A stretch of DNA of 64,000 nt, taken from the sequence record NC_052652.1; one strand, written 5' to 3'. A model generated the notes under the pieces. It worked only from the letters and a program-made list of their open reading frames with translations, searched no databases and was not told the origin of the DNA. The first letter of the stretch is position 1. Each line of letters starts with the position of its first letter. Positions 24,054 to 35,744 of this stretch are shown piece after piece. The position numbers and the translations under genes were made by a program. Source of the stretch: Escherichia phage vB_EcoM_PHB05.

Positions 24054-24117
24054 ACTTGCCTCCTATTTTGTTAAACGAACTTTTATTGTAACACAGAAGA
24101 GGCTGTTTTGCAAGTGG

Positions 24118-24138
24118 AGGGGGATAATCCCCCCTCTT
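24118..24138 (-). terminator. Terminator-like hairpin (GAGGGGGG ATAAT CCCCCCTC)
   Basis: 8-bp perfect G/C stem in the 93-nt gap between genes. Confidence 0.45.
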
Positions 24139-24146
24139 AGACTCTG

Positions 24147-24749
24147 TTAGATATTGTAAACCTTTGTATGAGTTACTACACCATCTTCTACAAAATCAAT
24201 ACGTTCTTGATCCGTAACTAGTGCAGACAACACTTTAAATTTAATTTTTACACGCTCAAAAGCTGGTTGACCATCTTTAAGATAATTATGTTCAGTTGTC
24301 ACTGTCTTGTTTACAAAATCAACTTTTGCTTTACCGTTTTCGCGTAAGTGGAATGTTTTTCCTGCTTTATACACAATTTCAACATTACCTTCGAGAGTAA
24401 TTCCTTCAAAAAGTTCACCCTCTTCTTCATTTTCTTCACTTTTGAACAGACGACGAAATTCTTCCATATCAAGATAAACAACACCTTCAGAATAATTATC
24501 AGTAAGATATGTCTTACCACCCATTAGCCCGAAATATTGCCAGATTGCCGAATAAACATCACTAGATGATCCAAGGGTTTCTCTGAGTTTAGTTCCACGA
24601 ATTACTTCATAAACTTCAAAATTGAAACCAGCCTGCAAAGCATCAAACAGCACATCACTAACTTCTAAAGCATAATCTTGATTGTGTTCAATATCTACAA
24701 GAAAATTGCCGCTACGAATAAGTTTTTGACCTTCTAAAGTAATACCCAT
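24147..24749 (-). CDS. Hypothetical protein, 200 aa
   Basis: Track ORF; acidic run EENEEEGELFEG; no motif recognised. Confidence 0.4.
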   Translation of the reverse strand: MGITLEGQKLIRSGNFLVDIEHNQDYALEVSDVLFDALQAGFNFEVYEVIRGTKLRETLGSSSDVYSAIWQYFGLMGGKTYLTDNYSEGVVYLDMEEFRRLFKSEENEEEGELFEGITLEGNVEIVYKAGKTFHLRENGKAKVDFVNKTVTTEHNYLKDGQPAFERVKIKFKVLSALVTDQERIDFVEDGVVTHTKVYNI

Positions 24750-24777
24750 TGTTTTCTCCTCTTTTATTTCAAATATG

Positions 24778-24793
24778 CGCCCCGAAGGGCGCT
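24778..24793 (-). terminator. Terminator-like hairpin (GCGCCC CGAA GGGCGC)
   Basis: 6-bp GC stem with tetraloop immediately downstream (on - strand) of the TerD-like gene. Confidence 0.45.
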
Positions 24794-24813
24794 ATGATTT
24801 ATTACTTGACTTA

Positions 24814-25410
24814 TTACTCGAACCAATCGTCGCCAGCGCCGAACGCTTTAACTACATCGTAAATGTCAAGCCCAGCTTTACCCACACCATACGCTTTCAG
24901 TTTCCATTCACTATCTTCCCGTACCAGGGAGGCAACGTGGCAAATGGTGTTACCTGCAAGTTCTGGAGCCAAGAAGTCAAAGTCCAGCAGTTCAACATTA
25001 CGTTCATCATCGAAGATTTTAAGGAAACCTTCGGTAGCGTGACCAAGGCGTTTCTTACCCGTTTCGTCATCAATAGTAATTACAAATGCAATTTCCTGTG
25101 CTTCAGCAGAGATATTATCCAGTGTAACATCAATCTGCTCCATCTGTCCTACACCGTCACGAACATCTTCACCTGCAAAAGTAGAACGTTCAGGATCAAA
25201 TTTCTGCGCGTAGCACACCAGGTGACGAGGAGACAACAGTTCCGGCAGACCAGATGCATTGTGTCGGCAAATCAGAGCACTAACATCCAGATCCAGTTTT
25301 TCGTTAGATTTCCAAGAGAATTCCAGACGAATGCGTTTCAGTGCTGGTGCAATCTTTTTCAGAGAAACTTTTTCACTAGAACCTTTTTTCAGGGAAATTT
25401 TCTGAGTCAT
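24814..25410 (-). CDS. terD: TerD-domain stress protein (tellurium-resistance TerD family), 198 aa
   Basis: N-terminal ISLKKGSSEKVSLKK strand pair, LDLDVSALICRHN block and acidic Ca-binding-like segment (FAGEDVRDGVGQMEQIDVTLD, ITIDDETG) as in TerD/TerE proteins. Confidence 0.65.
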   Translation of the reverse strand: MTQKISLKKGSSEKVSLKKIAPALKRIRLEFSWKSNEKLDLDVSALICRHNASGLPELLSPRHLVCYAQKFDPERSTFAGEDVRDGVGQMEQIDVTLDNISAEAQEIAFVITIDDETGKKRLGHATEGFLKIFDDERNVELLDFDFLAPELAGNTICHVASLVREDSEWKLKAYGVGKAGLDIYDVVKAFGAGDDWFE

Positions 25411-25482
25411 AATTTATTATCTCCTTTGTTGTTAATTTACGTTGTCTATTTTACTAATCTTTTCTACAAAGTCAAGCGTTTT

Positions 25483-26277
25483 TTACGCTTTTGCTCCGAA
25501 TTTTTTAACCCACTCACCAAACTCTTCGGATAACAGCTTATCGTAAAGTTCTTCATCAGACAAGGACAAATCTGCAATACCGATAAAATCAACATTATCG
25601 TATTCTTTTGCCAAGTCTTTCAGGAATTTAAAGTTTGCATTACCTACACCAACCATAAACCAGTAAACAGGCGTATTGCGGTGTTTGTTCAGTAAGCTAC
25701 GTACTGCTGAAGTATCCATGTTCTCCCCGTCAGTTTGGAAGAAAATCATTGCAGGAGTACGATCAACTTGTGCATCAGTATCTACAACCTGTTCTACAAC
25801 AGTACGTGTTACTTCTACAAGTTCTTTTTTACCAGTTAGTTTAGCAAGGAAACCCTTAGCCGGGACTTCTTCATACTCAACGACTTCGCGTGTAATATTT
25901 TTCATAGGTACACTACCGAAGTATGTATCATAGATCTCTTGCATTACTGGAGCATAAGCAGTACCACCGTTGATGCAAACATTAGACATGCAAGAGCCGA
26001 CATAATCATCATACACACCAGCCGTTGCAGGAGGCAGTTCAAAAGAAGAACTATTGAAAGCCCACATGTCAATCTGTGCATTATCATCAAACTTCATACC
26101 AAACGGCAGCAGTTTACCTACAAAATCACTAACAGTGCCATCACGATACAGCTCACACATACTACCCGAAATATCTAAGGCGCTACCGACACGAAGAACA
26201 ACATCGTTAATCTTTTTCTTACGCAGAGATACAGTAAGAGTTTCTTGACGTTTTTTAAGACTGATTTTATTGGACAT
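25483..26277 (-). CDS. von Willebrand factor A (vWA) domain protein with TerD-like N-terminal strand (TerY/TerF-like), 264 aa
   Basis: MIDAS motif VGSALDISGSM (DxSxS); N-terminus ISLKKRQETLTVSLRK mirrors the TerD N-terminus. Confidence 0.55.
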   Translation of the reverse strand: MSNKISLKKRQETLTVSLRKKKINDVVLRVGSALDISGSMCELYRDGTVSDFVGKLLPFGMKFDDNAQIDMWAFNSSSFELPPATAGVYDDYVGSCMSNVCINGGTAYAPVMQEIYDTYFGSVPMKNITREVVEYEEVPAKGFLAKLTGKKELVEVTRTVVEQVVDTDAQVDRTPAMIFFQTDGENMDTSAVRSLLNKHRNTPVYWFMVGVGNANFKFLKDLAKEYDNVDFIGIADLSLSDEELYDKLLSEEFGEWVKKFGAKA

Positions 26278-26278
26278 A

Positions 26279-26548
26279 TTATTTCTCCTTTCTGAGTGTA
26301 ATGTTAGTAACTTCTAAATCCACTTCTACTACTTCTGTATCATATAAAATACAGTTAAGTTGACCTCTTTGTGAACCGTTCAGACACATTGCTTGGTTTG
26401 TATTAACCTTAATAAACACTAAGTTTCTGAACGTATCTAAACCAGATTCTTGATAGGCAACATAATATACAAATGTATCACCTGCGTCAAGTTCTCCAAA
26501 ACATTTAGGTTCATCTGATTTGTCGTCTTTGATATTAAATTTAAGCAC
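26279..26548 (-). CDS. Hypothetical small protein, 89 aa
   Basis: Track ORF. Confidence 0.3.
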   Translation of the reverse strand: MLKFNIKDDKSDEPKCFGELDAGDTFVYYVAYQESGLDTFRNLVFIKVNTNQAMCLNGSQRGQLNCILYDTEVVEVDLEVTNITLRKEK

Positions 26549-27104
26549 TGTCTTCTCCTTTACCTGCTCTCCAGCCTAAATAGAAAGCCTCTCTGGTGAT
26601 CTTTTGCAACTCGTTTAAAGAGATAGTTACAACTAAATCATCTTCAATTTCTAGCTTTGAGTCTTCTTCTGTCTCAATGCAAGTATTATGCACTTTGTGG
26701 TAAGGATTGTCAACACGTTTAAATTTATTATTTTCAGTGCTGAAGAAGCAATCTGGATCTTCTTCTCCATCACCCCAGCCCTGGTTAGGGTCTTCTTCAG
26801 ATCTTTCTGTTGGGATCTCCCCTGTAAAGTGCTCTTCTAATACCATAGCGATACCATCCCCAGGATCGGAAGAGAACATCAAATTACAAACTTCTTCCCA
26901 AGGCATAGACCACTTGAATCTTTTACGATTGCCATGTTTATCTTCTTCGTTAGAGAAAACACTACCATAGCTATCATAATTGCCATACATCTCTTCAACA
27001 ACTTTACCACCTTTCAAAAGAAATAGGTAGCAAGGAGAGCCATCGAAAGAGGTAGAAAGAGCAGCATTACCAGACTCTTTGCACAAGAAACTAAAACACC
27101 CCAT
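26541..27104 (-). CDS. Hypothetical acidic protein, 187 aa, C-terminal motif shared with the next gene
   Basis: C-terminal LNELQKITREAFYLGWRAGKGEDS resembles N-terminal LTREELQTIMEDAFIDGWKQGQESD of 27104..27304. Confidence 0.35.
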   Translation of the reverse strand: MGCFSFLCKESGNAALSTSFDGSPCYLFLLKGGKVVEEMYGNYDSYGSVFSNEEDKHGNRKRFKWSMPWEEVCNLMFSSDPGDGIAMVLEEHFTGEIPTERSEEDPNQGWGDGEEDPDCFFSTENNKFKRVDNPYHKVHNTCIETEEDSKLEIEDDLVVTISLNELQKITREAFYLGWRAGKGEDSA

Positions 27105-27304
27105 TATACACCAGCCTTAAGATCAACTAAAGCCAAAGTTGTTTCAGAATGTGTTTGCTCGTCTACAGGTGCAGTCATATGATAATACAAAAAGTCTTCG
27201 GCATCATACCAATCTGACTCTTGACCTTGTTTCCAACCATCAATGAAAGCATCTTCCATAATGGTTTGTAATTCTTCACGAGTTAAGTGAATATCTTTAT
27301 TCAT
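27104..27304 (-). CDS. Hypothetical small protein sharing the AF-x-GW motif, 66 aa
   Basis: See previous entry; translationally coupled. Confidence 0.3.
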   Translation of the reverse strand: MNKDIHLTREELQTIMEDAFIDGWKQGQESDWYDAEDFLYYHMTAPVDEQTHSETTLALVDLKAGV

Positions 27305-27537
27305 TACACATTCTCCTCTTTTACCAATTCCATCGTTGAACTATCAAAACCATCTTTAGAAGAATAGGTATAGACAGAACGTAGTTCTCGCAGGACAGTA
27401 AACACATTAGGATCATCTAACCAAGCATCCTGGAGGAGAACATAACGATCTTCATTGTCGTACTGGACAGCGATCATAGAACCAGACAGTTTGTAAATTT
27501 TAATATTCATAATATATTTCTCCTTAAAGTAGACCAC
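27304..27537 (-). CDS. Hypothetical small protein, 77 aa
   Basis: Track ORF. Confidence 0.3.
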   Translation of the reverse strand: MVYFKEKYIMNIKIYKLSGSMIAVQYDNEDRYVLLQDAWLDDPNVFTVLRELRSVYTYSSKDGFDSSTMELVKEENV

Positions 27538-28627
27538 GTTTAACAGTTTGAATCATACCATCTTCAAGAGATTGCACTTCTTGAATGTAATCAATACGAG
27601 CAGCACGGGCTTCAGTGTTGATCCGATTAGTTTCTTCCAACATTTTAACTAAGTTTTCTTGATCGCGACGTAATGTTTCAATATCCAATACTTGACGATT
27701 AGCAAGTTGCGTAGCTTCAATTTGGTTTTGTGCAGCCAGATCACTACCCATTGCAATAGCAGCATTAAACTCATTCAGTACATTGTTCTGTGTATCGGCT
27801 GCTTTCTTCTGGCGTAGACTTTCAATATACATAGAAAAGTTTGCAGAGTAAGCAGGAATAACATTATTCACAATATTACGGGCTGATCGCATCAAACTTG
27901 CAGATACTTTCTGCATACTTTGTACACGTGGCCCCATCTGAACACACAGTAAACGCAAGGCTTTCAGGTCTGCAATACGAATTTCAAGCAGATCCATAGT
28001 ATCACGAGTACGTTGACGCTCTTCTACTTCATTTTCAGGTAGTGTATTAAGGCGAACTTCTTCTTTTTCATAAGTAGCTGTTAGAAGCTCTATATCCCTG
28101 TTTAAGCTAAGAGCATATTTTGCAATAGCCTCTTCTAAACGTTGCAGATATCGTAAAGAATCTTCTTCTTTTTTCAAGTCTGTTTGGAGTGTCTTTACCA
28201 AACCTTCAATACGATTATTGATGGTGTCAAATTCTCCAAACAAATCTTCTTTCATACCTAATACTTTCTTAACTAACTTACCTAAGCCTTTAGATTGTTT
28301 AATAGAGTTAGGATCAAGTTGCTTTGCTTGCTTAATAAGTGCAGTTAAACGTTCACTCATTTCATCTCCCTGAGATGAACGCTGGTGTTTAAGCACTTCA
28401 GCATTAAGGTTACGAAGAGTAAGTCCTGCATCAGCACCAACTTGTTCAATCTCTTCACGAGACATTGGAGGCAGCATTTGTACAGGTCGTGCAACAGCAG
28501 GGGCATATACAGGGCTTGCATCCATAGCACTTGGAGCAAACAAAGACTTACTTTTTTCTGTTGTTGCCGTGAATACACTCATTTCAGACGGTTTGCTTTT
28601 TACGGCACTGATAAAAGGACTGGACAT
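27524..28627 (-). CDS. telA: TelA-like toxic-anion-resistance family protein (coiled-coil), 367 aa
   Basis: Length, predicted all-helical coiled-coil architecture with E/R/L-rich heptads and position next to TerD/TerC genes match TelA/KlaA family; assignment by resemblance, not verified. Confidence 0.5.
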   Translation of the reverse strand: MSSPFISAVKSKPSEMSVFTATTEKSKSLFAPSAMDASPVYAPAVARPVQMLPPMSREEIEQVGADAGLTLRNLNAEVLKHQRSSQGDEMSERLTALIKQAKQLDPNSIKQSKGLGKLVKKVLGMKEDLFGEFDTINNRIEGLVKTLQTDLKKEEDSLRYLQRLEEAIAKYALSLNRDIELLTATYEKEEVRLNTLPENEVEERQRTRDTMDLLEIRIADLKALRLLCVQMGPRVQSMQKVSASLMRSARNIVNNVIPAYSANFSMYIESLRQKKAADTQNNVLNEFNAAIAMGSDLAAQNQIEATQLANRQVLDIETLRRDQENLVKMLEETNRINTEARAARIDYIQEVQSLEDGMIQTVKRGLL

Positions 28628-28695
28628 TCAATTTCCTCCATATTCTTTAGTAGATGGTGATACCTCTGTACCACCATCATAACACAAATTAAGTA

Positions 28696-29547
28696 TTAAA
28701 CAAACATATCTAAATAATTTGTAGTAATAAATGCTCCATCTGCTTCCAGATTAACATAACCAGTAGCATTAGTGGTTAAGAAATCCAGATCGAAGGACTC
28801 TTTAACACCCCGTACCTCAACACGAGAGATATCGAATACAGGTAGTGTAACAGCCTCTTCGTGCAATACCGTACCTTTGTAGGTTGCCTTAATGATAAAC
28901 TTGATATTACCCGTTCCCGCATCATACAAAACACTTTCAAACCCTTTGAGAGTATACTTATCACCAGAAGTGAAGTGCAAAGTTGCTTTGTTTACAGTAC
29001 GTTTTTTACGAGGAGTTCCTTTCACACGTTTATGATCACTACGTTTTTTGTATTTAGGAGTGAATACAAACGATACACTCTCAAGAAAGGTATCAACATC
29101 AAGGATTTCAATATCCTCTGTTGCAGCAAATTTTGAAGTCGTTGCATCAAAATGCTTTCCCCTGCGATCATACATAAAGATATCAAACCGATCTTCTAAA
29201 TCAAACAAATTATGTATCTTAATTTCAGAATGCTTGCACATTGCAGCAACCTTAAACTCTTCAAAACGTGGGTGTTCTACAAGCTCTTCAAGTTTTACAC
29301 CAAAGACAGTATATTGTTTCGAAGTTTTTTCTGGCGTTGGCATTACAGAAGCATAATCACCGATTGCGCTTTTAAAGCAAAATTGTTCTTGACCTGTATT
29401 TTTACCAACGAATTTACAGTATTCGTCATCGTGCATACTTTCTTTGGTAGTACCAACAAACTCAAAACCATCCTTATTCTTCTCAAGAATTTCTTGATTA
29501 AAGATCCAACCTTCCAGGCGATACACTTTACCAACTTCTAGTTTCAT
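28696..29547 (-). CDS. Hypothetical protein, 283 aa
   Basis: Track ORF between TelA-like and lipoprotein genes; basic KR-rich linker; no motif recognised. Confidence 0.4.
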   Translation of the reverse strand: MKLEVGKVYRLEGWIFNQEILEKNKDGFEFVGTTKESMHDDEYCKFVGKNTGQEQFCFKSAIGDYASVMPTPEKTSKQYTVFGVKLEELVEHPRFEEFKVAAMCKHSEIKIHNLFDLEDRFDIFMYDRRGKHFDATTSKFAATEDIEILDVDTFLESVSFVFTPKYKKRSDHKRVKGTPRKKRTVNKATLHFTSGDKYTLKGFESVLYDAGTGNIKFIIKATYKGTVLHEEAVTLPVFDISRVEVRGVKESFDLDFLTTNATGYVNLEADGAFITTNYLDMFV

Positions 29548-29582
29548 CTGTTCCTCCTTCTTATTTAATCTGTATTAAATTA

Positions 29583-30188
29583 TTAACGGCGACGTGAGCT
29601 ACTAAAACTACGTTTCGACGAAGAATAACTTTTCGAAGACTTACTATAAGAGCTAATAGGGCTTGAGTAAGACTTACGAGCAGAGTAATCACTATTCACT
29701 TTTGTTGTTGATGGGCGTGAATACGTTTGTACACTTTGCTGCTTAATTGTGTTTTGTTTAGTTGTTGTATATGTATTCCCTTGTTTATCATAAAAACTAT
29801 GCTTTTGTGTTGTATATGATTTACTGTTAGTTGTAGGAGCAGCGTTGTTATTAATAATTGTTGTATTGCTACCGCCATCTCTATAACCACCACCGCCACT
29901 ATTACCACTCAACATATGACCAAGAAGCATACCTGTAGCAAATTCACCTACACCAGAAGAACCACTACCGCCTCCTTGCACAACAACTGTTGAAGGCTGT
30001 GCAGGTGCTGCTTGAACAACTTGAGGTGCAGGTTGATTTACATATTGTTCATCTACCATCTGATTTGGTGTTTGTTGGTAACGTTGGTTTTGTACATTTT
30101 CAGAATCATCACAACCTACCAGCAATGCACTGCCTAAAACAACTGCAACAATAAAAGATTTAATGTTTTTCATTTGTAACCCTCTCAT
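29583..30188 (-). CDS. Lipoprotein with glycine-zipper segment and S/Y/Q/N-rich low-complexity tail, 201 aa
   Basis: Signal peptide plus lipobox (ALLVGC); GMLLGHMLSG glycine zipper; extreme S/Y/T/K-rich C-terminus. Confidence 0.55.
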   Translation of the reverse strand: MRGLQMKNIKSFIVAVVLGSALLVGCDDSENVQNQRYQQTPNQMVDEQYVNQPAPQVVQAAPAQPSTVVVQGGGSGSSGVGEFATGMLLGHMLSGNSGGGGYRDGGSNTTIINNNAAPTTNSKSYTTQKHSFYDKQGNTYTTTKQNTIKQQSVQTYSRPSTTKVNSDYSARKSYSSPISSYSKSSKSYSSSKRSFSSSRRR

Positions 30189-30366
30189 TTAAAGTCTCAA
30201 CACAATTTTTAAAATCTCTAGAGAAACAATACATCTGTTCTCCGTTCCTGTTGATAGTAATTGTATGGTTATCAATATATGTTGTCAATATAAAAATCAA
30301 ACAAAATAGCCCTAAAGCAAAACAAATATTTTCAAACAGAATCCAAAGAACACGTAAAACCACCAT
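30160..30366 (-). CDS. Small membrane protein, 68 aa
   Basis: Single hydrophobic helix (ICFALGLFCLIFILTTYI). Confidence 0.3.
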   Translation of the reverse strand: MVVLRVLWILFENICFALGLFCLIFILTTYIDNHTITINRNGEQMYCFSRDFKNCVETLNERVTNEKH

Positions 30367-30382
30367 CAGATCACCTCAACAA

Positions 30383-30398
30383 AGCCCCCGAAGGGGCT
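30383..30398 (-). terminator. Terminator-like hairpin (AGCCCC CGAA GGGGCT)
   Basis: GC stem with tetraloop between the TerC-like gene and downstream genes. Confidence 0.4.
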
Positions 30399-30405
30399 TA
30401 ATGAA

Positions 30406-31383
30406 TTAAGCAACAGCCTGGTCTTCTTTTTCAGGGAAGATTAAACTTGCAATAACACCCAGCCCCAGAGTACCTAACACAATATACATACTGATCGTCG
30501 GATCAATGTGTGCTGGCAGGAAACTCACTTTTGCGTGCAGAGTTTCTGCAAATGGGTGATACATCAGTTTTACACCCACAAATACCAGGACTACGATAAC
30601 TGCTTTCTCCAGATGAACCAAATATTTCAGTGCAACACTAAGGACAAAGAACAGAGCACGTAGACCTAAAATTGCACACAGCATTGAAGAAAATACAAGC
30701 AGAGGTTCTTGTGTCACTGCAATTACTGCTGGAACAGAATCTACTGCAAAGATTACGTCAACCATTTCCATTACAAACACACAAACCAATGCAGGAGTTG
30801 CTACACGAACACCATTTTTGATTGTGAAGAACTTCTCACCATCCATCTGATCAGATACAGGGAACAGCTTACGAACAATGCGAGTAGCCCAGTGTTTAGA
30901 GTAATCAACTTCTGCGTCATTATCTCCAGCGAATACCATTTTAGCTGCACAGAAAAGGATGATCGCACCGAAGAAGATATTAACATACCAGCCCAAACTC
31001 AACAAGTAAGTGCCTACTGCTACAAACACACCTCGGAAGACAATCGCACCTGCAATACCCCAAAGTAGAATCTTGTGCTGCAAGTGTGTGCTTTTAATAC
31101 CAAAACTTGCGAATACTGCCACAAATACTACTAAGTTATCTACAGAAAGAGATTTCTCCAACACATACCCACTCAAGAACAAGCTCGCAAAATCAGCACC
31201 GTGTTGGAAGTATACAAAACCATAGTAGGCTAATGATACCCCAATCCAGAAAATTGACCAGCCAATTGCAGATTTAAATGAAATTTCTTTGTTTTCTCTG
31301 TGTCCAAAGAAATCAATACAAATCGACAAGACTAAAATACCCACTAAAACAACCACATCAATAATTGGGAAACCCAGTTGCAT
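30406..31383 (-). CDS. terC: TerC-family integral membrane protein, 325 aa
   Basis: Multiple TM helices and hallmark motif LEKSLSVDNLVVFVAVFASFG of the TerC/Alx family. Confidence 0.7.
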   Translation of the reverse strand: MQLGFPIIDVVVLVGILVLSICIDFFGHRENKEISFKSAIGWSIFWIGVSLAYYGFVYFQHGADFASLFLSGYVLEKSLSVDNLVVFVAVFASFGIKSTHLQHKILLWGIAGAIVFRGVFVAVGTYLLSLGWYVNIFFGAIILFCAAKMVFAGDNDAEVDYSKHWATRIVRKLFPVSDQMDGEKFFTIKNGVRVATPALVCVFVMEMVDVIFAVDSVPAVIAVTQEPLLVFSSMLCAILGLRALFFVLSVALKYLVHLEKAVIVVLVFVGVKLMYHPFAETLHAKVSFLPAHIDPTISMYIVLGTLGLGVIASLIFPEKEDQAVA

Positions 31384-31401
31384 TCTTTTCTCCTCTTTAA
31401 T

Positions 31402-31420
31402 GCGGAGGACAATCCTCCGC
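31402..31420 (-). terminator. Hairpin (GCGGAGGA CAAT CCTCCGC) upstream of the TerC-like gene, possible terminator of the preceding transcript
   Basis: 7-bp stem in the 77-nt intergenic gap. Confidence 0.35.
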
Positions 31421-31460
31421 TCTATGTCGTATACTATAAACTGTTTTTAAAGAAAGTCAA

Positions 31461-31709
31461 CTAGTTCAGTTCTGTAATTTTAAGTTTATCTTCTTTGTTA
31501 ATGATAGGGAAAGCTACAGCATCACCTACATCATCAATAAAGCAAACAGCAAGACCACCTTCCACTTTGCTAACCTGACCATTAAAGGCGTGATACGGGG
31601 CAGGAACAATATCTCCATCTTCAAGGAGAATAGCCTCATAAACCTTACCAACAGTACAATCACGAGTGTTTATAAATTTTTCAAGCACTTCAACATTTAC
31701 TTTACGCAT
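31461..31709 (-). CDS. Hypothetical small protein, 82 aa
   Basis: Track ORF. Confidence 0.35.
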   Translation of the reverse strand: MRKVNVEVLEKFINTRDCTVGKVYEAILLEDGDIVPAPYHAFNGQVSKVEGGLAVCFIDDVGDAVAFPIINKEDKLKITELN

Positions 31710-31724
31710 ATAAAAAATCCTCTC

Positions 31725-31931
31725 TTATTTGTTAGATTGAAAGATACCACGAAGTACCGCAAGAATGAACGTCACACAGACTACACTCCAAAACGTTACA
31801 GGAACATGATGCCAGTCTAAACCGATAATGTCAATCATATAGTTGTATGCTAAAAGCAGTAGCCAACTAGGGATTAACACAATCAAGAACACAACAATAA
31901 AACAACCTAATACTGCTAAAACACCTGCCAT
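31725..31931 (-). CDS. Small membrane protein, 68 aa
   Basis: Two hydrophobic helices (LAVLGCFIVVFLIVLIPSWLLLLAY; VTFWSVVCVTFILAVL). Confidence 0.35.
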   Translation of the reverse strand: MAGVLAVLGCFIVVFLIVLIPSWLLLLAYNYMIDIIGLDWHHVPVTFWSVVCVTFILAVLRGIFQSNK

Positions 31932-31940
31932 ACTTTCTCC

Positions 31941-32657
31941 TTATTTCAGTTTGTAAACAATTACATTTAAACCTTTGTTCACTAGAGTTTCTTCGATCAT
32001 AAGTTTTACAATATTCCAAGAACCTCCAGCCAAACCACAACCAAGCATTGGTAAACCTACAATTTTACCGCCTGAAGATACAACATCGTCTCCCATACTA
32101 TCTAACGCATTGTAGATAGCTTCATAATTCAGGTCACGCTTACCTTCCTCACGACGACTATAACCATATTGTCCATATAAATTATAAATTGTCAAATTGT
32201 TTTCTGTATACTTAGTAAACGTACCTAATTTTTTATAATCACCACGTTTAGTGGCACAATCTGCTTTAAACGCACCAGGCCACTTGCTTTTAATTTTTGG
32301 TGCAATACCACTACCCATAGTGCAAAAACAGTTACAGCAGTGTGCTATAGCGTCTATATCGCCTCTCTCGGCTGCTGCTAAAAGATCACCGTATACCTCA
32401 ATGATACCTGCTGGATAACTTGTTACAATTTCATCTTCCCAATACATTTTCTCTACACCACCGATCAGTGCAAAGTTTTGTGTAATGCGATCATCAATAT
32501 AGTTAAGACCTGAAACATACACAGCATATTCATCCTGTGCTGTAATGCCTTGTACACGAATTCTTAAGACACCATCTTTATCTGTTGCTACGCGCCCAAA
32601 ATCTTTTTCTGTAATATTGGTGATAGGATCTCCGAAAGTCGTCACTTTATTAGACAT
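31941..32657 (-). CDS. Macro-domain protein (Poa1p-like ADP-ribose-derivative processing enzyme), 238 aa from internal start
   Basis: Motif IDAIAHCCNCFCTMGSGIA matches the H-x-CN...MG-GIA signature of Poa1-type macro domains; start set at the Met with RBS AAGGGG, giving an 8-nt overlap with the upstream gene. Confidence 0.5.
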   Translation of the reverse strand: MSNKVTTFGDPITNITEKDFGRVATDKDGVLRIRVQGITAQDEYAVYVSGLNYIDDRITQNFALIGGVEKMYWEDEIVTSYPAGIIEVYGDLLAAAERGDIDAIAHCCNCFCTMGSGIAPKIKSKWPGAFKADCATKRGDYKKLGTFTKYTENNLTIYNLYGQYGYSRREEGKRDLNYEAIYNALDSMGDDVVSSGGKIVGLPMLGCGLAGGSWNIVKLMIEETLVNKGLNVIVYKLK

Positions 32658-33507
32658 AATAATCCCCTTTAACATTAGATTTGTTGATAATGTTGCTTTC
32701 AAAAAATTGACGCAGGAAATCAAAGTTCTCTTTGTATTTTTCAATATTATTGTAACCTTCTGCAAGGCAACCAAAGAACAGTTGTTCTACATAATACAAA
32801 GGAAGTTGTGAAAGTGCAATTTTAAAATCAACTTCGCTTTGACTCATTAGATACTTAATAGGACGAACCAAACATTTAGCATCAGTTTCTTGCTTAATCA
32901 TTTTAATAAAAGCTGCCAAGTTATTGATATAGTTGAAGTTAAGCGCAGCTTCGGTGTTGGCTTCTGTACCTTCATACTTTGCAAAGTACAGGAAAAACGT
33001 ATCGTTTTCAACACCTTCTTTGTCTAAAATTTCAATAAGTTTTTCTTCGTGTGTTCCTGTAATATTAACATCATCAATGAAAATCAGAGTTTTATTACCC
33101 CAGAAATCACGATTGATAGAGAAAGTGTCACCATCAATCAAAGCCTTACGATCTTCTTTGCTAAGAAATCCATAATCATTGATATAACTCACTTTACGAT
33201 GAACGATATCCCACTCTACTGCTTTACCTCCTTTGATAGAGATTAGGTAGTTGAGGTGATCTACAAAATGTTCAGATAACACTGTAGCTGCATTTTTCAC
33301 ATAGTTGTATGGAGATGGAATAACAACAAAACTTTCATTTACTAGTCGTTCTTCATATTTAGAAAAGAAACTTTCAGCCAGAATGCGTCCCATTCTTTTT
33401 GCTGCCTGGTTACTACCAAACTTTAGTTTGGAATAATCTGCAATGTTAAATTTTGCTTCCTTCAGGTTAGTAAAAGTATTAGCAAAATGTTGAATTTGAT
33501 TACGCAT
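32650..33507 (-). CDS. Phosphoribosyltransferase (type I PRTase fold) family protein, 285 aa
   Basis: PRPP-binding motif TLIFIDDVNITGTHEEKL (hydrophobic strand, two acidic residues, TG-T). Confidence 0.55.
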   Translation of the reverse strand: MRNQIQHFANTFTNLKEAKFNIADYSKLKFGSNQAAKRMGRILAESFFSKYEERLVNESFVVIPSPYNYVKNAATVLSEHFVDHLNYLISIKGGKAVEWDIVHRKVSYINDYGFLSKEDRKALIDGDTFSINRDFWGNKTLIFIDDVNITGTHEEKLIEILDKEGVENDTFFLYFAKYEGTEANTEAALNFNYINNLAAFIKMIKQETDAKCLVRPIKYLMSQSEVDFKIALSQLPLYYVEQLFFGCLAEGYNNIEKYKENFDFLRQFFESNIINKSNVKGDYYV

Positions 33508-34156
33508 TAATAAGTTCCTCTTTTTTAAGTTTAGCCAACAAATCTTCTGGATTAATAATATGACAGAACTTCATCCCTATGTCAACAGCTTTTCCATCAT
33601 AGATCAAACTATCTCCAACGTGTAAAATCTCCTCTGGTGCGAGATCAAACGTTACCATTTCATCAAAAGAGAGTTTAAAAAACCTAGGATCTGGTTTACA
33701 CAAGCAAAACTCATCAGAAAAATGCATAAAGTCAAATGGTAATTTTGTTAAGCCAGAATATACAGCTAAGAAACTACCTGGTACAAAATTAGTATTGCTC
33801 TTAATACTCAAAGAATAGGTTGAACTTAGCTCTTCCAACTTCTTGCAAAGCTCATGGTTCAATATTGGAGGATGTTTTATAAACATTGCTAAACAGTCTC
33901 TTTTTAATCCATCCACTTTATCAAGATCAATGTTCAAACGAGTAGAAAGTGTTTCCCAAGCATTCCTAGACGTTCCACAAATGCCTTTTTCTGCTTTTAA
34001 ATCCAGGAGAGTTTTTACCTCTTTATATACGGTAGCTGCTTCTGCCTCAGAACAAGAGGTATACTCGGCAATAACCTTGTTGCGTTCTTCTGCATACAAA
34101 GGATTAGCAGTAATAAGAGTATTCCATACATCAAAAGAAATATGCTTAACAGTCAT
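33500..34156 (-). CDS. HAD-superfamily hydrolase-like protein (phosphatase/nucleotidase-like), 218 aa from internal start
   Basis: N-terminal ISFDVWNTLI (motif I-like, second Asp replaced) and C-terminal HVGDSLIYDGKAVDIG (motif IV-like); start at the Met with RBS GGAGG. Confidence 0.45.
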   Translation of the reverse strand: MTVKHISFDVWNTLITANPLYAEERNKVIAEYTSCSEAEAATVYKEVKTLLDLKAEKGICGTSRNAWETLSTRLNIDLDKVDGLKRDCLAMFIKHPPILNHELCKKLEELSSTYSLSIKSNTNFVPGSFLAVYSGLTKLPFDFMHFSDEFCLCKPDPRFFKLSFDEMVTFDLAPEEILHVGDSLIYDGKAVDIGMKFCHIINPEDLLAKLKKEELINA

Positions 34157-34325
34157 TTTTAATCCTCCGTCCAAAAGAATATCATCTGCTTAATTTTATT
34201 AATCTCTTGACGTAGTAACTTTCCAGCATGTGCTTGATCTTTAAGATTTGCAGCAAGAGTTTCAAGCTCCGTTAGTTTTTCCTGGATAGCTTTATATTCA
34301 TCATCTGTAAGCATTTTCTTCCCCT

Positions 34326-34529
34326 TTAGAATGGTAATCTTTGTATATCACTTATCCCCACACCAAGAAGTCTAGCAATATCCTTATCTAAAAGCAACTC
34401 TTTTTGTTCTAAAATGTTAATCAGATCTCCTAATACTTCTTTAATGTCACGATCATTTTTAGCAACGTGACCACCTGCTGTATCAACTTTATCTTTAAAA
34501 ACAAAATAATGATCCATAATACCCTCCAT
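34326..34529 (-). CDS. Hypothetical small protein, 67 aa
   Basis: Track ORF. Confidence 0.3.
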   Translation of the reverse strand: MEGIMDHYFVFKDKVDTAGGHVAKNDRDIKEVLGDLINILEQKELLLDKDIARLLGVGISDIQRLPF

Positions 34530-34536
34530 ATAAATA

Positions 34537-34560
34537 AAGGAGGCTTTCGCCTCCTTTTAT
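34537..34560. terminator. Terminator hairpin flanked by A- and T-runs (AAAGGAGGC TTTC GCCTCCTTTT)
   Basis: Perfect 7-bp stem, symmetric A/T flanks. Confidence 0.55.
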
Positions 34561-34563
34561 CAC

Positions 34564-35724
34564 TTAGTAAGAACGACCACCAAACACATACTCTGTGTAG
34601 TTTTTACGTTCTTTGTTTTTAATAACAACTTCAATGTTGTTACCTTTATCATCGGTGAACATAAAGTGATAACCGTCACCACCCATTGTACGAATGTGTT
34701 TTTCATCATACGTTAGCAAGATACGGTCTACACCCCAGTAGTAGTCACCTTCTTCATCTTTATCTTCTACGGTAACGATCCCTTCCATTTCAGGAAGATG
34801 CTCTTCTCCTGACTTATGATCTACAGCTACAACATAACGATTACCGCTAAACAAACCTTGTGCTGTCATACCGTCAATATCGGTATCTGACGAAACATCC
34901 CCTGTACGATCTACACCGTTAACTTTCAGAAGTTTAACTTCTTTTGCAGCATAGCGGTGTTCAGTAATACTGATACCCATTAATGCAAGTGCATCAGAGA
35001 ATTTGTCATTAGGGTAACGGTTAAGTTCTTCTACTAATGACTGAACAATATCAAAGTTCAAATCCACGGAGAGATTATAAAGCGTTTCAAAATCTGGTAA
35101 GAAGGCTTTGTTCTCCAGATTTTTAGCCAGATAATCATCCATAGTAGCTTTAGGTAGTTTCTTATAGCTAAAACTGTAGAAAATACGGCTAGGACGATTA
35201 CGCAAAAATTCTGATACATAACCATCATTTTTAGTCAATACAAACAGCTTGTCATAACCACCAACACCATCCAGCAGGGTAAGCAGACCATCTTGTGCAT
35301 CTTTTTCAGCATACAGTTTATCAAATTCATCGATCATAATCATCACAGGTTGTGTGATTTTAGACATAAAATTGATAAAGCCTTCACCATTAAAAGCACT
35401 ACCGATAGAAATAGTAGGAATACCCATTTCACGAAGAGCAGAAGACAGCATTTTAGCTTGCAAAGTTTTACCGCTACCTTTCGTACCCTCAAGGAGAACA
35501 CCTGTGTTTTTACCTTTGCGGCTAAGGAACGTCTTGATAATACGTTCTGATTTATCATCAGTATCACCGTATGTTACTGAAGGGACTTCCATATCGTTTT
35601 TAGGATACAGGAAGAACTCGCCACTTTGAGTAACACCTACACCAAAAGTTCCTGCTGGAATTTCTTCAATATCTGTACCAGACTTCTGACGCAGGAAGAT
35701 TTGATTGCCGAATACTGTAAACAT
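34564..35724 (-). CDS. P-loop AAA+-type ATPase, copy A (RFC/clamp-loader-like motif layout), 386 aa
   Basis: Walker A GTKGSGKT, Walker B MIMIDEFDK, sensor-1-like VLTKNDG, arginine motif NRPSRIFY; paralogue of 50489..51616. Confidence 0.6.
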   Translation of the reverse strand: MFTVFGNQIFLRQKSGTDIEEIPAGTFGVGVTQSGEFFLYPKNDMEVPSVTYGDTDDKSERIIKTFLSRKGKNTGVLLEGTKGSGKTLQAKMLSSALREMGIPTISIGSAFNGEGFINFMSKITQPVMIMIDEFDKLYAEKDAQDGLLTLLDGVGGYDKLFVLTKNDGYVSEFLRNRPSRIFYSFSYKKLPKATMDDYLAKNLENKAFLPDFETLYNLSVDLNFDIVQSLVEELNRYPNDKFSDALALMGISITEHRYAAKEVKLLKVNGVDRTGDVSSDTDIDGMTAQGLFSGNRYVVAVDHKSGEEHLPEMEGIVTVEDKDEEGDYYWGVDRILLTYDEKHIRTMGGDGYHFMFTDDKGNNIEVVIKNKERKNYTEYVFGGRSY

Positions 35725-35744
35725 AGTTTTCTCCTCTATTTAAT

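What the first reader, a model, noticed from the sequence alone, without database searches (positions are those of the whole stretch)
24814..34174. Phage-encoded Ter-like stress-response cluster (TerD, vWA, TelA-like, TerC plus PRTase, HAD and macro-domain genes)
Within about 9.4 kb on the - strand lie genes whose products carry hallmarks of TerD (24814..25410), a vWA protein with a TerD-like N-terminus (25483..26277), a TelA-like coiled-coil protein (27524..28627), a TerC-family membrane protein with the EKSLSVDN motif (30406..31383), a glycine-zipper lipoprotein, a Poa1-type macro domain, a phosphoribosyltransferase and a HAD-like hydrolase. This composition mirrors the chromosomal Ter/tellurite-resistance neighbourhoods that comparative genomics has linked to metal sensing, membrane stress and synthesis of a nucleoside-like metabolite. 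Finding the ensemble inside a lytic phage, interleaved with unannotatable small genes, suggests the phage manipulates host membrane or ion homeostasis, or carries an uncharacterised defence/counter-defence module. None of the intervening hypothetical proteins has a recognisable function, so the system may include novel components.
Basis: partly seen in the sequence, partly recalled or inferred. Interest (0 to 1): 0.85.

Follow-up and report, generated by a model that had tools for sequence, protein, structure and literature searches.

The report
Phage-borne Ter stress-response gene cluster
A phi92-like lytic E. coli phage carries a compact copy of the bacterial "tellurite-resistance" (Ter) membrane and metal stress system; the genes are real and conserved, but they were already annotated and discussed in the literature and their role in the phage is untested.

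Summary
Pfam finds TerD, vWA-TerF-like, TelA, TerC, PRTase_3, a HAD hydrolase and a macro domain at the stated coordinates on the minus strand. The window is a Justusliebigvirus (phi92-like) genome.

Six genes form a real module: HAD, PRTase_3, TerC, TelA, vWA-TerF-like and TerD. They keep their order in three Stephanstirmvirinae lineages. The same six recur, shuffled, in two unrelated viral contigs, and subsets sit beside the HAD-PRTase_3 pair in four more. Two Bacteroidetes loci place the pair among Ter genes.

The macro gene is probably not part of the module. It is TARG1/DarG-like, not Poa1-type, and is homologous to T4 Tk.4/AdfM, an anti-DarTG2 factor. The intervening "hypothetical" genes are lineage-specific or unlinked to Ter, so they are not hidden components.

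The most likely function, inferred by homology only, is an early-expressed system for inner-membrane and divalent-cation homeostasis that protects the infected cell and excludes rival phages and colicins, as plasmid ter operons do.

Novelty is low. GenBank records and papers from 2015 and 2021 already note these genes, and a 2021 review proposes the same function. Interest is moderate because Ter biochemistry is unsolved and this phage group infects E. coli K-12.

The parts
33500..34156 (-). HAD-superfamily hydrolase, the obligate upstream partner of the PRTase. The ORF extends to a TTG at 34174. Motif I is D-V-W-N-T, so the Asp+2 general acid/base is missing.
   Evidence: Pfam Hydrolase E 4.7e-5. 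PDB 2om6 at 8.6e-9 shares the FDVWNTL motif. The gene lies directly upstream of PRTase_3 in all but two of the phage, plasmid and bacterial loci examined; the exceptions are the near-identical L047 and L048. The nucleophile Asp, Thr, SN, K and GD...D are invariant, and Asp+2 is never present (A7).
32650..33507 (-). PRTase_3 (ComF-like phosphoribosyltransferase). It overlaps the HAD stop codon and the macro start codon.
   Evidence: Pfam PF15610 at 1.1e-41. The PRPP loop L-I-F-I-D-D-V-x-I-T-G-T-H is invariant across 7 homologues (A1). No relative has a solved structure.
31941..32657 (-). Macro-domain protein (alternative start at 32675): an ~85-aa N-terminal extension plus a TARG1/DarG-like macro domain. 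It is a probable AdfM-like counter-defence gene and not core Ter.
   Evidence: Pfam Macro 3e-7. PADLOC and NCBIfam match the DarG macro part at ~1e-13. PDB 5e3b, 2fg1 and TARG1 match at 3e-15 to 3e-10. It is 30% identical over 139 aa to T4 Tk.4/AdfM, E 1e-17. The N-terminal extension is a separate gene in KP13-26 and absent in tuntematon.
31725..31931 (-). 68-aa protein with two hydrophobic segments, upstream of TerC. It is conserved in all three Stephanstirmvirinae lineages. One record calls it 'holin'.
   Evidence: PHROG of unknown function.
31461..31709 (-). 82-aa protein of unknown function, weakly conserved.
31384..31460 (-). terC upstream region: a sigma70-like promoter (TTGACT-16-TATAGT) followed by an 8-bp stem-loop and a Shine-Dalgarno sequence.
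   Evidence: The GTTGAC box and the stem-loop are kept in three lineages, with compensatory changes in 5 of 8 pairs (A4). No Rfam family matches.
30406..31383 (-). TerC/Alx-family integral membrane protein, a predicted divalent-cation exporter.
   Evidence: Pfam TerC 7.5e-39. TIGR03718 at 323 bits, above its cutoff. About 9-10 hydrophobic segments. It is 47% identical to IncHI2 ter-operon TerC and 38% to K-12 Alx.
30384..30397 (-). GC-rich hairpin (GCCCCTTCGGGGGC) followed by TTTGTTG, a terminator-like site just after terC.
   Evidence: Read directly from the sequence. The consensus scan did not list it, and terminator-like sites in the region are no more frequent than in shuffles.
30160..30366 (-). 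68-aa single-pass membrane protein downstream of TerC, conserved in all three lineages.
   Evidence: Weak DUF6693 hit at 2.9e-4, below cutoff.
29583..30188 (-). Lipoprotein with an LVGC lipobox, Asp at +2 and a Gly-rich segment. It is seen only in Justusliebigvirus and is not a core part.
   Evidence: tblastn finds nothing in tuntematon or KP13-26, although the low-complexity filter may hide weak similarity.
28696..29547 (-). 283-aa ORFan. Only its C-terminal ~100 aa is weakly conserved in sister lineages. Not a core part.
   Evidence: Only 2 protein clusters in 5.8 billion. No Pfam or PDB hit. Partial tblastn matches only.
27524..28627 (-). TelA (toxic-anion-resistance family), an all-alpha protein with long helices.
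   Evidence: Pfam TelA 5.1e-34. It is 74-79% identical in sister lineages. Homologues occur in 243 phage records. The AF2 model has low confidence (pLDDT 59) and shows three long helices.
26279..27537 (-). Four filler genes of 77, 66, 187 and 89 aa. The 187-aa protein belongs to a widespread phage family that is not linked to Ter.
25483..26277 (-). vWA-TerF-like protein with an intact MIDAS motif (D-I-S-G-S ... T ... D).
   Evidence: Pfam PF10138 at 1.7e-38. It is 28% identical to the C-terminal vWA part of IncHI2 TerF, E 2.8e-23. It is the most frequent Ter neighbour of HAD-PRTase_3 in other viral loci.
25448..25475 (-). Sigma70-like promoter (TTGACT-16-TAAAAT) upstream of terD.
   Evidence: It is conserved in KP13-26 (A5).
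24814..25410 (-). TerD-domain protein with a shortened acidic loop.
   Evidence: Pfam TerD 5.1e-28. Klebsiella TerD 2kxt at 8.6e-15. The canonical G-D-G-D-D-E loop is reduced to G-(Q/S/N)-(M/L)-E in all three lineages (A2).
24777..24792 (-). GC hairpin (GCGCCCCGAAGGGCGC, palindromic) after terD, a terminator-like site at the cluster boundary.
34536..34557 (-). Terminator-like hairpin after the upstream AAA ATPase gene. It marks the upstream boundary of the region.

Best explanation
The region holds a phage-borne Ter module of six genes: HAD, PRTase_3, TerC, TelA, vWA-TerF-like and TerD. It is interrupted by unrelated accessory genes, one of which is an AdfM-like macrodomain counter-defence gene.

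Shown here:
- The six proteins belong to the Ter-associated families and keep their metal-binding or catalytic motifs.
- They keep their order across three Stephanstirmvirinae lineages.
- The same six families recur together, in other orders, in unrelated phages. The HAD-PRTase_3 pair also lies among TerD, vWA and TerC genes in two Bacteroidetes contigs.
- terC and terD each have a conserved host-type promoter-like site.

Inferred:
- Early in infection, host RNA polymerase transcribes the genes.
- TerC inserts into the inner membrane as a divalent-cation (Mn2+/Zn2+/Ca2+-type) exporter.
- TerD and the MIDAS-bearing vWA protein act as cytoplasmic metal- or ligand-binding partners, and TelA acts as a membrane-associated helical protein.
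- PRTase_3 and its HAD partner make a small ribosylated (nucleoside-like) compound that serves as ligand or cofactor.
- The net effect is to stabilise the infected cell's membrane and ion balance and to exclude superinfecting phages and pore-forming colicins. These are the phenotypes that plasmid ter operons confer.

The macro protein most likely acts separately, removing DarT2-type ADP-ribose from phage DNA.
For: - Domain assignments.
- Motif conservation: PRPP loop, HAD motifs, MIDAS and EKSLSVDN.
- Synteny with 50-95% amino-acid identity in Phapecoctavirus tuntematon and Klebsiella phage KP13-26.
- Independent recurrence in IMG/VR contigs: L041 has TerC-TelA-TerD-x-vWA-HAD-YopX-PRTase_3. 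L040 has TelA-YqeY-HAD-PRTase_3-vWA-x-TerC(DUF475)-TerD. L036, L032, L038 and L045 carry subsets.
- Bacterial Ter loci with the same pair.
- The phage TerC is closer to ter-operon TerC (47%) than to Alx (38%).
- Conserved promoter-like sites before terC and terD.
- Literature: plasmid ter needs terC, terD and terZ for phage inhibition and colicin resistance. A terC deletion in K. pneumoniae enlarges plaques and lowers Zn, Mn and tellurite tolerance. TerC-TerD is the minimal functional unit (PMC12054061).
- A review has already proposed superinfection exclusion for phage Ter systems (PMC7824862).
- telA is induced in envelope stress.
- Phage terD operons are highly transcribed in gut jumbo phages, next to pspA-like and Ca-ATPase genes (PMC12880540).
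- Macro as counter-defence: E 1e-17 to T4 Tk.4/AdfM, which T4 needs against DarTG2. The same phage carries a NADAR protein 99% identical to Bas60's NADAR gene (bas60_0111), which I take to be the experimentally anti-DarTG1 AdfN(Bas60).
Against: - No experiment exists on any phage Ter gene, so the function rests on homology to bacterial systems whose own biochemistry is unresolved.
- TerB, the TerZ/TerA paralogues and the ATP-grasp enzymes of classical ter loci were not found among the cluster ORFs.
- The phage TerD has lost most of the acidic Ca2+-binding loop.
- The HAD partner lacks Asp+2, so a simple nucleotidase step is doubtful.
- The HAD-PRTase_3 pair also occurs alone, in Rhizobiaceae plasmids and chromosomes and in several phages with no Ter gene within 10-14 kb. 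Coupling is therefore frequent but not obligatory.
- None of the six proteins hits a PADLOC defence model.
- Promoter-like and terminator-like hits in the region are no more frequent than in shuffled sequence.
- The macro gene is translationally coupled to PRTase_3 in this lineage, so a shared pathway is not excluded.
Confidence: 0.5

Rival explanations
1. This is metal housekeeping for the phage rather than exclusion. TerC exports or delivers Mn2+, Zn2+ or Ca2+ to tune the cytoplasmic metal pool, or to metalate periplasmic proteins, for the phage's own enzymes. TerD, vWA and TelA serve as buffers or regulators.
For: - TerC falls in the TerC/Alx metal-homeostasis subfamily above the curated cutoff.
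- K-12 Alx is annotated as a Mn2+ exporter.
- K. pneumoniae terC affects Zn and Mn tolerance.
- TerC alone is carried by many smaller phages that show no TelA or PRTase_3 hit in my searches.
- A P-type cation ATPase lies next to HAD-PRTase_3 in L022.
- Ca-ATPase and terD genes are co-expressed in gut jumbo phages.
- A secreted SleB-like hydrolase gene lies ~760 bp downstream of terD.
Against: - It does not explain why TelA, vWA and HAD-PRTase_3 travel with TerC in several lineages.
- No metal-dependent phage enzyme is shown to need it.
- It overlaps with the best explanation rather than excluding it.
Confidence: 0.2
2. The cluster is a counter-defence island. HAD, PRTase_3 and the macro domain act together on NAD/ADP-ribose-derived molecules or modifications from host immunity. 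The membrane Ter proteins protect the inner membrane from depolarising abortive-infection effectors rather than from rival phages.
For: - The HAD, PRTase_3 and macro genes overlap end to end in this lineage.
- The macro domain is homologous to the DarG macro domain and to T4 AdfM.
- A macro gene lies 7-8 kb from the pair in L032 and in Xanthomonas phage XaC1.
- NMN adenylyltransferase/Nudix or cytidylyltransferase-like genes follow the pair in a Rhizobium phage and in L041.
- Plasmid ter protects against pore-forming colicins.
Against: - The macro gene is absent near the pair in most lineages.
- In KP13-26 a separate 187-aa gene, matching the window protein's N-terminal extension, lies between PRTase_3 and the macro gene.
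- The pair's consistent neighbours are vWA-TerF-like, TerD, TelA and TerC, not NAD enzymes.
- The pair also sits in bacterial Ter loci and alone on Rhizobium plasmids, where a counter-defence role makes little sense.
Confidence: 0.15
3. The genes benefit the host during persistent, non-lytic carriage of the phage. They act as a moron-like set giving tolerance to tellurite, xenobiotics or oxidative stress, which helps infected lineages survive.
For: - Phapecoctavirus and Justusliebigvirus genomes form one cluster (55 predictions) among the 373 'persistent virulent phage' genomes found in E. coli isolate assemblies.
- Near-identical genomes are deposited under Campylobacter and Serratia hosts.
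- The jumbo-phage review raises this possibility.
Against: - No tellurite or stress phenotype is reported for these phages.
- The phages are virulent and no temperate functions are known for them.
- The idea does not explain the same module in many unrelated lytic jumbo phages.
Confidence: 0.1
4. The genes are decaying or hitch-hiking bacterial DNA with no function in the phage.
For: - The TerD acidic loop is degenerate.
- HAD scores below Pfam's cutoff.
- Classical components (TerB, ATP-grasp) were not found among the cluster ORFs.
Against: - All reading frames are intact.
- Amino-acid identity is 50-95% across three lineages whose filler genes have turned over.
- Catalytic and metal-binding residues are invariant.
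- The altered TerD loop is itself conserved.
- The module has been assembled independently in other phages.
Confidence: 0.03

Closest known systems
Plasmid and chromosomal ter determinants (terZABCDEF with terWXY and biosynthetic genes; IncHI2 R478-type plasmids, E. coli O157, Klebsiella)
   Same: - TerC is 47% identical over its full length.
- A vWA domain like the C-terminus of TerF is present.
- A TerD-domain protein is present, and its only tblastn match in the IncHI2 ter locus is the unnamed TerD-family gene between two vWA genes in the terW/terY region (28%).
- A PRTase and a HAD-type gene are associated with the membrane genes.
   Different: - No TerB, TerA, TerZ or TerE paralogues, no ATP-grasp, no aldolase, no StiP-family protease and no TerY/PP2C (the kinase normally grouped with these lies outside the IncHI2 stretch I fetched).
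- The PRTase is a different family (PRTase_3) with no detectable similarity to the IncHI2 PRTase.
- TelA is present, whereas in plasmids it belongs to a separate kilA/telAB system.
- vWA and TerD are separate genes rather than a TerF fusion.
- The TerD acidic loop is shortened.
Phage-encoded Ter systems described by Iyer, Anantharaman and Aravind (jumbo-phage review, 2021), and the terC/terF-vWA/terD/telA cluster of Klebsiella phage phiKp34
   Same: The component list is the same (PRTase, HAD, TerD, TerC, TerF-type vWA, TelA), and so is the proposed role in competition with superinfecting phages.
   Different: - This instance is in a ~146-kb non-jumbo myovirus.
- The review names Acinetobacter phage ME3 and the Caulobacter phages and mentions 'certain other related smaller tailed phages' only in passing.
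- Here the module is split by filler genes and an AdfM-like macro gene.
Bacillus subtilis yceCDEFGH envelope-stress operon (from established knowledge: three TerD paralogues, TerC-family YceF, YceG, TelA-family YceH; sigmaW regulon)
   Same: TerD, TerC and TelA occur together as an envelope-stress unit without TerB (the sigmaW context is in PMC3498285, listed).
   Different: - yce has no PRTase/HAD pair and no TerF-type vWA.
- yce is under ECF sigma-factor control, whereas the phage genes have sigma70-like promoters.
T4 Tk.4 / AdfM (anti-DarT factor Macrodomain) and the DarG2 antitoxin macro domain
   Same: The macro domain is 30% identical over 139 aa to Tk.4 (E 1e-17). It hits the DarG models at ~1e-13. 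It is an orphan macrodomain in a lytic phage that also carries an anti-DarT1 NADAR protein.
   Different: - It has an extra ~85-aa N-terminal domain of unknown function.
- It lacks DarG's C-terminal DarT-binding domain.
- Like SCO6735 and BT1257, it has Ala where I recall TARG1 having its catalytic Asp (GCGLAGG motif).
- Its activity is untested.
TerY-P anti-phage defence system (TerY vWA, PP2C phosphatase, Ser/Thr kinase)
   Same: It shares a vWA protein of the Ter world. In the Tannerella contig L022 a TerY/PP2C/kinase triad lies directly upstream of the same HAD-PRTase_3 pair.
   Different: The window has no TerY_C domain, PP2C or kinase, and none of its proteins hits a PADLOC TerY-P model.

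Membership tests
Ter stress-response system (Anantharaman/Iyer/Aravind sense) | TerD-domain protein | tested here: met
   Pfam PF02342 at 5.1e-28, above cutoff. Klebsiella TerD 2kxt at 8.6e-15.
Ter stress-response system (Anantharaman/Iyer/Aravind sense) | TerC-family membrane protein | tested here: met
   Pfam PF03741 at 7.5e-39. TIGR03718 at 323 bits against a cutoff of 246. 47% identical to ter-operon TerC.
Ter stress-response system (Anantharaman/Iyer/Aravind sense) | TelA and a TerF/TerY-type vWA protein as sub-membrane components | tested here: met
   TelA at 5.1e-34 and vWA-TerF-like at 1.7e-38. The MIDAS residues are present.
Ter stress-response system (Anantharaman/Iyer/Aravind sense) | Linked PRTase plus HAD 'nucleoside-like metabolite' genes | tested here: met
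   PRTase_3 at 1.1e-41. The HAD partner is adjacent in nearly every locus. The pair lies inside bacterial Ter loci L022 and L023. Caveat: HAD lacks Asp+2.
Ter stress-response system (Anantharaman/Iyer/Aravind sense) | TerB and ATP-grasp amidoligases, as in classical ter loci | tested here: not met
   No TerB or ATP-grasp hit among the 20 cluster ORFs scanned with Pfam. These genes are present in the IncHI2 locus. They are accessory and are not required by the family definition used.
Ter stress-response system (Anantharaman/Iyer/Aravind sense) | Ca2+-binding acidic motif of TerD (GDN-x-TG-x-GDGDDE, recalled from the Klebsiella TerD structure work) | tested here: inconclusive
   The DLD motif and one Asp and one Glu are kept, but GDGDDE is reduced to G-(Q/S/N)-(M/L)-E in all three phage lineages. 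Metal binding cannot be judged from sequence.
Ter stress-response system (Anantharaman/Iyer/Aravind sense) | Phenotype: tellurite resistance, phage inhibition, colicin resistance | not testable with these tools
   This needs expression or deletion experiments. No published test on phage Ter genes turned up in my searches.
TerY-P defence system | TerY (vWA plus TerY_C), PP2C phosphatase and Ser/Thr kinase triad | tested here: not met
   No such domains in the cluster. No PADLOC hit for the vWA protein.
AdfM / DarG2-type DNA ADP-ribosylglycohydrolase macrodomain | Macro fold of the TARG1/DarG class, homologous to T4 Tk.4 | tested here: met
   BLASTP against Tk.4 gives E 1e-17. DarG models match at ~1e-13, although far below the equivalog cutoff of 250 bits because only the macro part matches. 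PDB TARG1-class hits.
AdfM / DarG2-type DNA ADP-ribosylglycohydrolase macrodomain | Removes ADP-ribose from thymidine in ssDNA and is required on DarTG2 hosts | not testable with these tools
   Shown genetically only for T4 AdfM.
Poa1-type macro domain (ADP-ribose 1''-phosphate phosphatase) | Closest similarity to Poa1p-family macro domains | tested here: not met
   The Poa1-type structure 6lfu matches at only E 0.018 over a partial stretch, against 3e-15 for SCO6735 and BT1257 and 3e-10 for TARG1.
HAD phosphatase (classical) | Motif I D-x-D-x-T, with Asp+2 as general acid/base | tested here: not met
   Motif I is D-V-W-N-T. Asp+2 is W, Y or L in all 11 family members aligned, while motifs II-IV are intact. 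The PDB relative 2om6 has the same motif.

The most novel reading that the evidence does not exclude
The six-gene phage module may be a minimal, self-contained Ter machine. In this reading a phage-made ribosylated small molecule (from PRTase_3 and an atypical HAD enzyme) controls a TerC-TerD-vWA-TelA membrane complex. That complex shields the infected cell from superinfecting phages and from membrane-depolarising abortive-infection effectors, and may also support the persistent carriage seen for these genera. Because it sits in phages that infect E. coli K-12, it could finally expose the biochemical function of Ter systems, which has been unknown since the 1990s.
Probability: 0.15. Interest if true: 0.75.

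Novelty: already known. Interest (0 to 1): 0.35.

Why it matters
Ter operons are common in pathogens and on large resistance plasmids. They have been linked to phage inhibition, colicin resistance and survival in macrophages, yet how they work is still unknown.

A stripped-down six-gene version recurs in unrelated lytic phages. One such phage group plates on E. coli K-12. This offers a small, genetically tractable system for asking what TerC, TerD, TelA, the TerF-type vWA protein and the PRTase-HAD pair do together.

For phage therapy, phi92-like phages are used in cocktails. It helps to know that their 'tellurite resistance' genes are ancestral phage accessory genes and not recently captured plasmid resistance genes. 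TerC is only 47% identical to plasmid TerC.

Separating the macro gene as a likely anti-DarTG2 factor adds a testable counter-defence candidate.

Tried and rejected
- **Hidden Ter components among the hypothetical genes.** PHROGs, Pfam, PADLOC and NCBIfam gave nothing for them.
  - u283 has only two protein clusters worldwide.
  - u187 homologues sit in phage replication regions without Ter genes. I rejected these genes as Ter parts.
- **TelA fold.** The AF2 model had low confidence (pLDDT 59). Foldseek gave only generic helical bundles at E > 0.004, TM < 0.35 (designed bundles, AhlC/ClyA toxins, BAR domains). No conclusion was drawn.
- **Atd1.** This anti-TIR factor is reported in these genera, but it is a MazG-like enzyme and not in this cluster.
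- **Link to the IncHI2 ter biosynthetic genes.** Neither the phage PRTase nor HAD matches them.
- **Riboswitch upstream of terC** (alx and mntP carry yybP-ykoY, from my own knowledge). There is no Rfam match at E <= 1 across 24000-36000.
- **Single-operon reading.** I rejected it because of internal promoter-like and terminator-like sites. However, consensus scans were no better than shuffles overall.
- **Anantharaman et al. 2012.** The paper (PMC4104200) could not be read because it is not held. Statements about it come from papers that cite it.

Full report
**Identity of the window**

The 12 kb around the finding is 97.6-99% identical to the 30 best-matching Escherichia phage genomes, all about 146-150 kb. 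The best match is vB_EcoM_AMO3598; others include ECGD1, BME3, PaulScherrer (Bas60) and muut. phi92 itself carries a 98.8%-identical TerC. The annotated records place these phages in Stephanstirmvirinae, genus Justusliebigvirus. The genes of interest lie in a long minus-strand block (GC skew). On one side are four glycosyltransferase genes and a SleB-like hydrolase gene. On the other are an AAA ATPase and the anaerobic ribonucleotide reductase genes nrdD and nrdG.

**Check of the observation**

Pfam supports them as follows:
- TerD, E 5e-28
- vWA-TerF-like, E 1.7e-38
- TelA, E 5e-34
- TerC, E 7.5e-39
- Macro, E 3e-7
- PRTase_3, E 1.1e-41
- HAD, E 4.7e-5

The HAD score is below Pfam's cutoff. 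It is backed by a match to PDB 2om6 at 8.6e-9 and by conserved HAD motifs. TerC passes the curated cutoff of the TerC/Alx subfamily. TerD aligns end to end with Klebsiella TerD. The 201-aa ORF has a signal peptide, an LVGC lipobox and a Gly-rich stretch.

Three details need correcting:
- The macro domain is closest to SCO6735, BT1257 and TARG1 (3e-15 to 3e-10) and to the DarG macro domain. Its match to Poa1-type enzymes is weak (E 0.018).
- The vWA protein has no TerD-domain hit.
- The HAD gene more likely starts at the ATG at 34156.

**Is it a module or a coincidence?**

Three lines of evidence say module.

First, synteny. In Phapecoctavirus tuntematon and in Klebsiella phage KP13-26 the order is kept: HAD, PRTase_3, macro, a 68-aa membrane protein, TerC, a second 68-aa membrane protein, TelA, vWA, TerD. 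Amino-acid identities are 50-95%. The genes in between turn over. tblastn finds no homologue of the lipoprotein in either relative. Only the C-terminus of the 283-aa protein persists. The 187-aa and 89-aa genes are missing from KP13-26.

Second, independent recurrence. A pattern scan of IMG/VR with a PRTase_3 alignment returned 21 loci.
- Outside Stephanstirmvirinae, a HAD gene is directly upstream of the PRTase in all but two near-identical loci.
- In six of roughly thirteen distinct lineages, Ter genes lie within 10 kb on the same strand.
- Pfam confirmed two compact arrangements in other gene orders. L041 reads TerC, TelA, TerD, x, vWA-TerF-like, HAD, YopX, PRTase_3. L040 reads TelA, YqeY, HAD, PRTase_3, vWA-TerF-like, x, TerC/DUF475, TerD.

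Third, the bacterial counterpart. A scan of 100,044 species genomes found the pair mostly alone in Rhizobiaceae (plasmid pRL10). In two Bacteroidetes MAG contigs, however, it sits inside Ter loci:
- L022: three TerD genes, two vWA genes, TerY, PP2C, a kinase, HAD, PRTase_3, then a P-type cation ATPase.
- L023: two TerD genes, OmpA, HAD, PRTase_3, OmpA, TerC.

Each of these families occurs in fewer than 0.5% of phage records. Repeated co-localisation at that rarity is far from chance. The coupling is frequent but not obligatory. Xanthomonas phage XaC1, a Rhizobium phage and CcrColossus have the pair with no Ter gene within 14 kb.

**What is not part of the module**

The macro gene accompanies the pair closely only in Stephanstirmvirinae. 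Elsewhere it appears just twice, 7-8 kb away, in L032 and in Xanthomonas phage XaC1. Its macro domain is 30% identical over 139 residues to T4 Tk.4 (E 1e-17). A 2025 preprint renamed Tk.4 AdfM after showing that T4 needs it to plate on DarTG2 hosts.

The window also encodes a NADAR protein at 52864-53415 (Pfam 3.4e-36). It is 99% identical to bas60_0111. I take that gene to be the AdfN(Bas60) that neutralises DarT1 experimentally. A phage that carries one orphan DarG-type enzyme plausibly carries the other. I therefore read the macro gene as a counter-defence gene lodged in the cluster.

The other unknown genes fare as follows:
- The 283-aa protein is a genus-restricted ORFan.
- The 187-aa protein belongs to a large, strongly conserved phage family with no known fold. 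Its other members lie in replication regions without Ter genes.

The suggestion that the intervening genes are novel Ter components is therefore not supported. The two conserved 68-aa membrane proteins flanking terC are a possible exception.

**Anatomy and regulation**

The HAD, PRTase_3 and macro genes overlap end to end. terC is preceded by TTGACT-16-TATAGT and an 8-bp stem-loop. The -35 box and the stem are kept in three lineages, with compensatory changes in 5 of 8 pairs, although only three distinct sequences were available. terD is preceded by TTGACT-16-TAAAAT, which is conserved in KP13-26. GC hairpins followed by T-rich runs lie after the AAA gene, after terC and after terD.

This points to several early, host-polymerase-driven units rather than one operon. 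Two cautions apply. Consensus hits in the region are no more frequent than in shuffled sequence, and no transcript data exist. No Rfam family matches.

**Sequence features that bear on mechanism**

- The PRPP-binding loop of the PRTase is invariant.
- The HAD partner keeps the nucleophile Asp, Thr, S-N, Lys and the G-D...D motif. In all 11 members aligned it has W, Y or L where phosphatases have the Asp+2 general acid/base. The usual 'nucleotidase' step is therefore uncertain.
- The vWA MIDAS motif is intact.
- The phage TerD keeps the DLD motif, but its acidic loop is cut from GDGDDE to G-x-x-E. That change is conserved across the three lineages.
- TerC is 47% identical to the ter-operon TerC of IncHI2 plasmids and 38% to K-12 Alx.
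- The vWA protein matches the C-terminal part of TerF.
- Neither the PRTase nor the HAD resembles the IncHI2 biosynthetic genes.

**Most likely function**

Nothing has been tested in a phage, so this step is inference from bacterial Ter systems.
- Plasmid ter determinants confer phage inhibition and colicin resistance, and these require terC, terD and terZ.
- TerC-TerD is reported as the minimal functional unit.
- A K. pneumoniae terC deletion lowers Zn, Mn and tellurite tolerance and enlarges phage plaques.
- TelA genes belong to envelope-stress regulons.
- In gut jumbo phages, terD operons are highly transcribed next to pspA-like and Ca-ATPase genes.

I therefore favour an early-expressed system for membrane and divalent-cation homeostasis. 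It would keep the infected cell productive and exclude rival phages and colicins, with the PRTase-HAD product acting as a ligand. This matches what Iyer, Anantharaman and Aravind proposed for jumbo phages.

The rivals are:
- pure metal housekeeping;
- a counter-defence island that includes the macro gene;
- host benefit during persistent carriage, since these two genera form a sizeable cluster among the 'persistent virulent phages' found in E. coli isolates;
- non-function, which conservation argues strongly against.

**Novelty**

The cluster is already annotated in many GenBank records as tellurite resistance, TerC, vWA, PRTase, macrodomain and HAD. A 2015 metagenomic study of a therapeutic cocktail lists phi92 gp172, gp173 and gp178 as TerD and tellurite-resistance proteins. 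Phage Ter systems are discussed in a 2021 review and in a Klebsiella phage paper.

This analysis adds four things:
- a six-gene core defined by recurrence;
- removal of the macro gene and the filler genes from the system;
- the atypical HAD motif and the shortened TerD loop;
- evidence that terC alleles have been exchanged between genera.

The finding is real but known. Its remaining value is as a tractable entry point into Ter biochemistry.

Noticed in passing
window 52864-53415 (+): NADAR-domain protein (Pfam 3.4e-36), 99% identical to PaulScherrer bas60_0111. I take this to be AdfN(Bas60), which has been shown experimentally to neutralise DarT1. Together with the AdfM-like macro gene, the phage may counter both DarTG types.
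   Followed up: yes
[not shown]
   Followed up: partly
window 30406-31383 (-), L007 13629-14603: terC shows allele exchange between genera. Some Phapecoctavirus genomes (tuntematon, ECO340P1, BI-EHEC, phiWec179) carry a TerC 93-95% identical to this one, while most carry a 72% allele, and the flanking genes are only 50-65% identical. The promoter plus stem-loop cassette upstream of terC resembles the promoter-early-stem-loop elements that I recall being implicated in module shuffling in T4-type phages.
   Followed up: partly
window 33500-34156 (-) and alignment A7: In the whole HAD family that partners PRTase_3, the Asp+2 of motif I is replaced by W, Y or L (D-V-W-N-T), as in the uncharacterised PDB entry 2om6. 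All other HAD motifs are invariant. The chemistry may not be that of a standard phosphatase.
   Followed up: yes
L022 1-14633 (MAG contig assigned to Tannerella): One contig joins three TerD genes, two vWA genes and a TerY/PP2C/kinase triad (the TerY-P defence architecture) directly to the HAD-PRTase_3 pair and a P-type cation ATPase. Gut jumbo phages of Bacteroides carry terD and Ca-ATPase genes, so this contig could be phage DNA binned into a bacterial MAG.
   Followed up: no
window 23544-24053 (-): SleB-like cell-wall hydrolase (Pfam Hydrolase_2, 5.8e-20) with an N-terminal signal peptide, ~760 bp downstream of terD. It is annotated as the endolysin in related phages. A secreted endolysin next to a membrane-homeostasis cluster may be worth a look.
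   Followed up: no
window 34564-35724 (-) and 50489-51616 (+): There are two AAA+ ATPase genes of similar size (386 and 375 aa), annotated as 'ATPase or Zn metalloprotease' or 'FtsH-like protease' in relatives. The first borders the cluster, is present in KP13-26 and is absent at that position in tuntematon. A CapR-homology/T5orf172 protein lies at 51691-52863.
   Followed up: no
search result (records MG065639, MG065645, MG065656, MG065689, OK210077): Genomes 97.9-98.9% identical to this E. coli phage are deposited as Campylobacter phages and as a Serratia phage. This could mean mislabelled hosts, contamination, or the persistent carriage reported for these genera.
   Followed up: no
window 29583-30188 (-): The lipoprotein has Asp at position +2 after the lipobox Cys. 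From general knowledge, this is the E. coli inner-membrane retention signal. It also has a Gly-zipper-like segment and a long Ser/Thr-rich basic tail. It was found only in Justusliebigvirus and could be a separate surface or exclusion factor.
   Followed up: no
window 39069-39503 (-); L040 8813-9256: A YqeY-like (GatB C-terminal-like) gene occurs 5 kb upstream of the cluster here, and directly between TelA and HAD in the unrelated viral contig L040. This may be coincidence.
   Followed up: no
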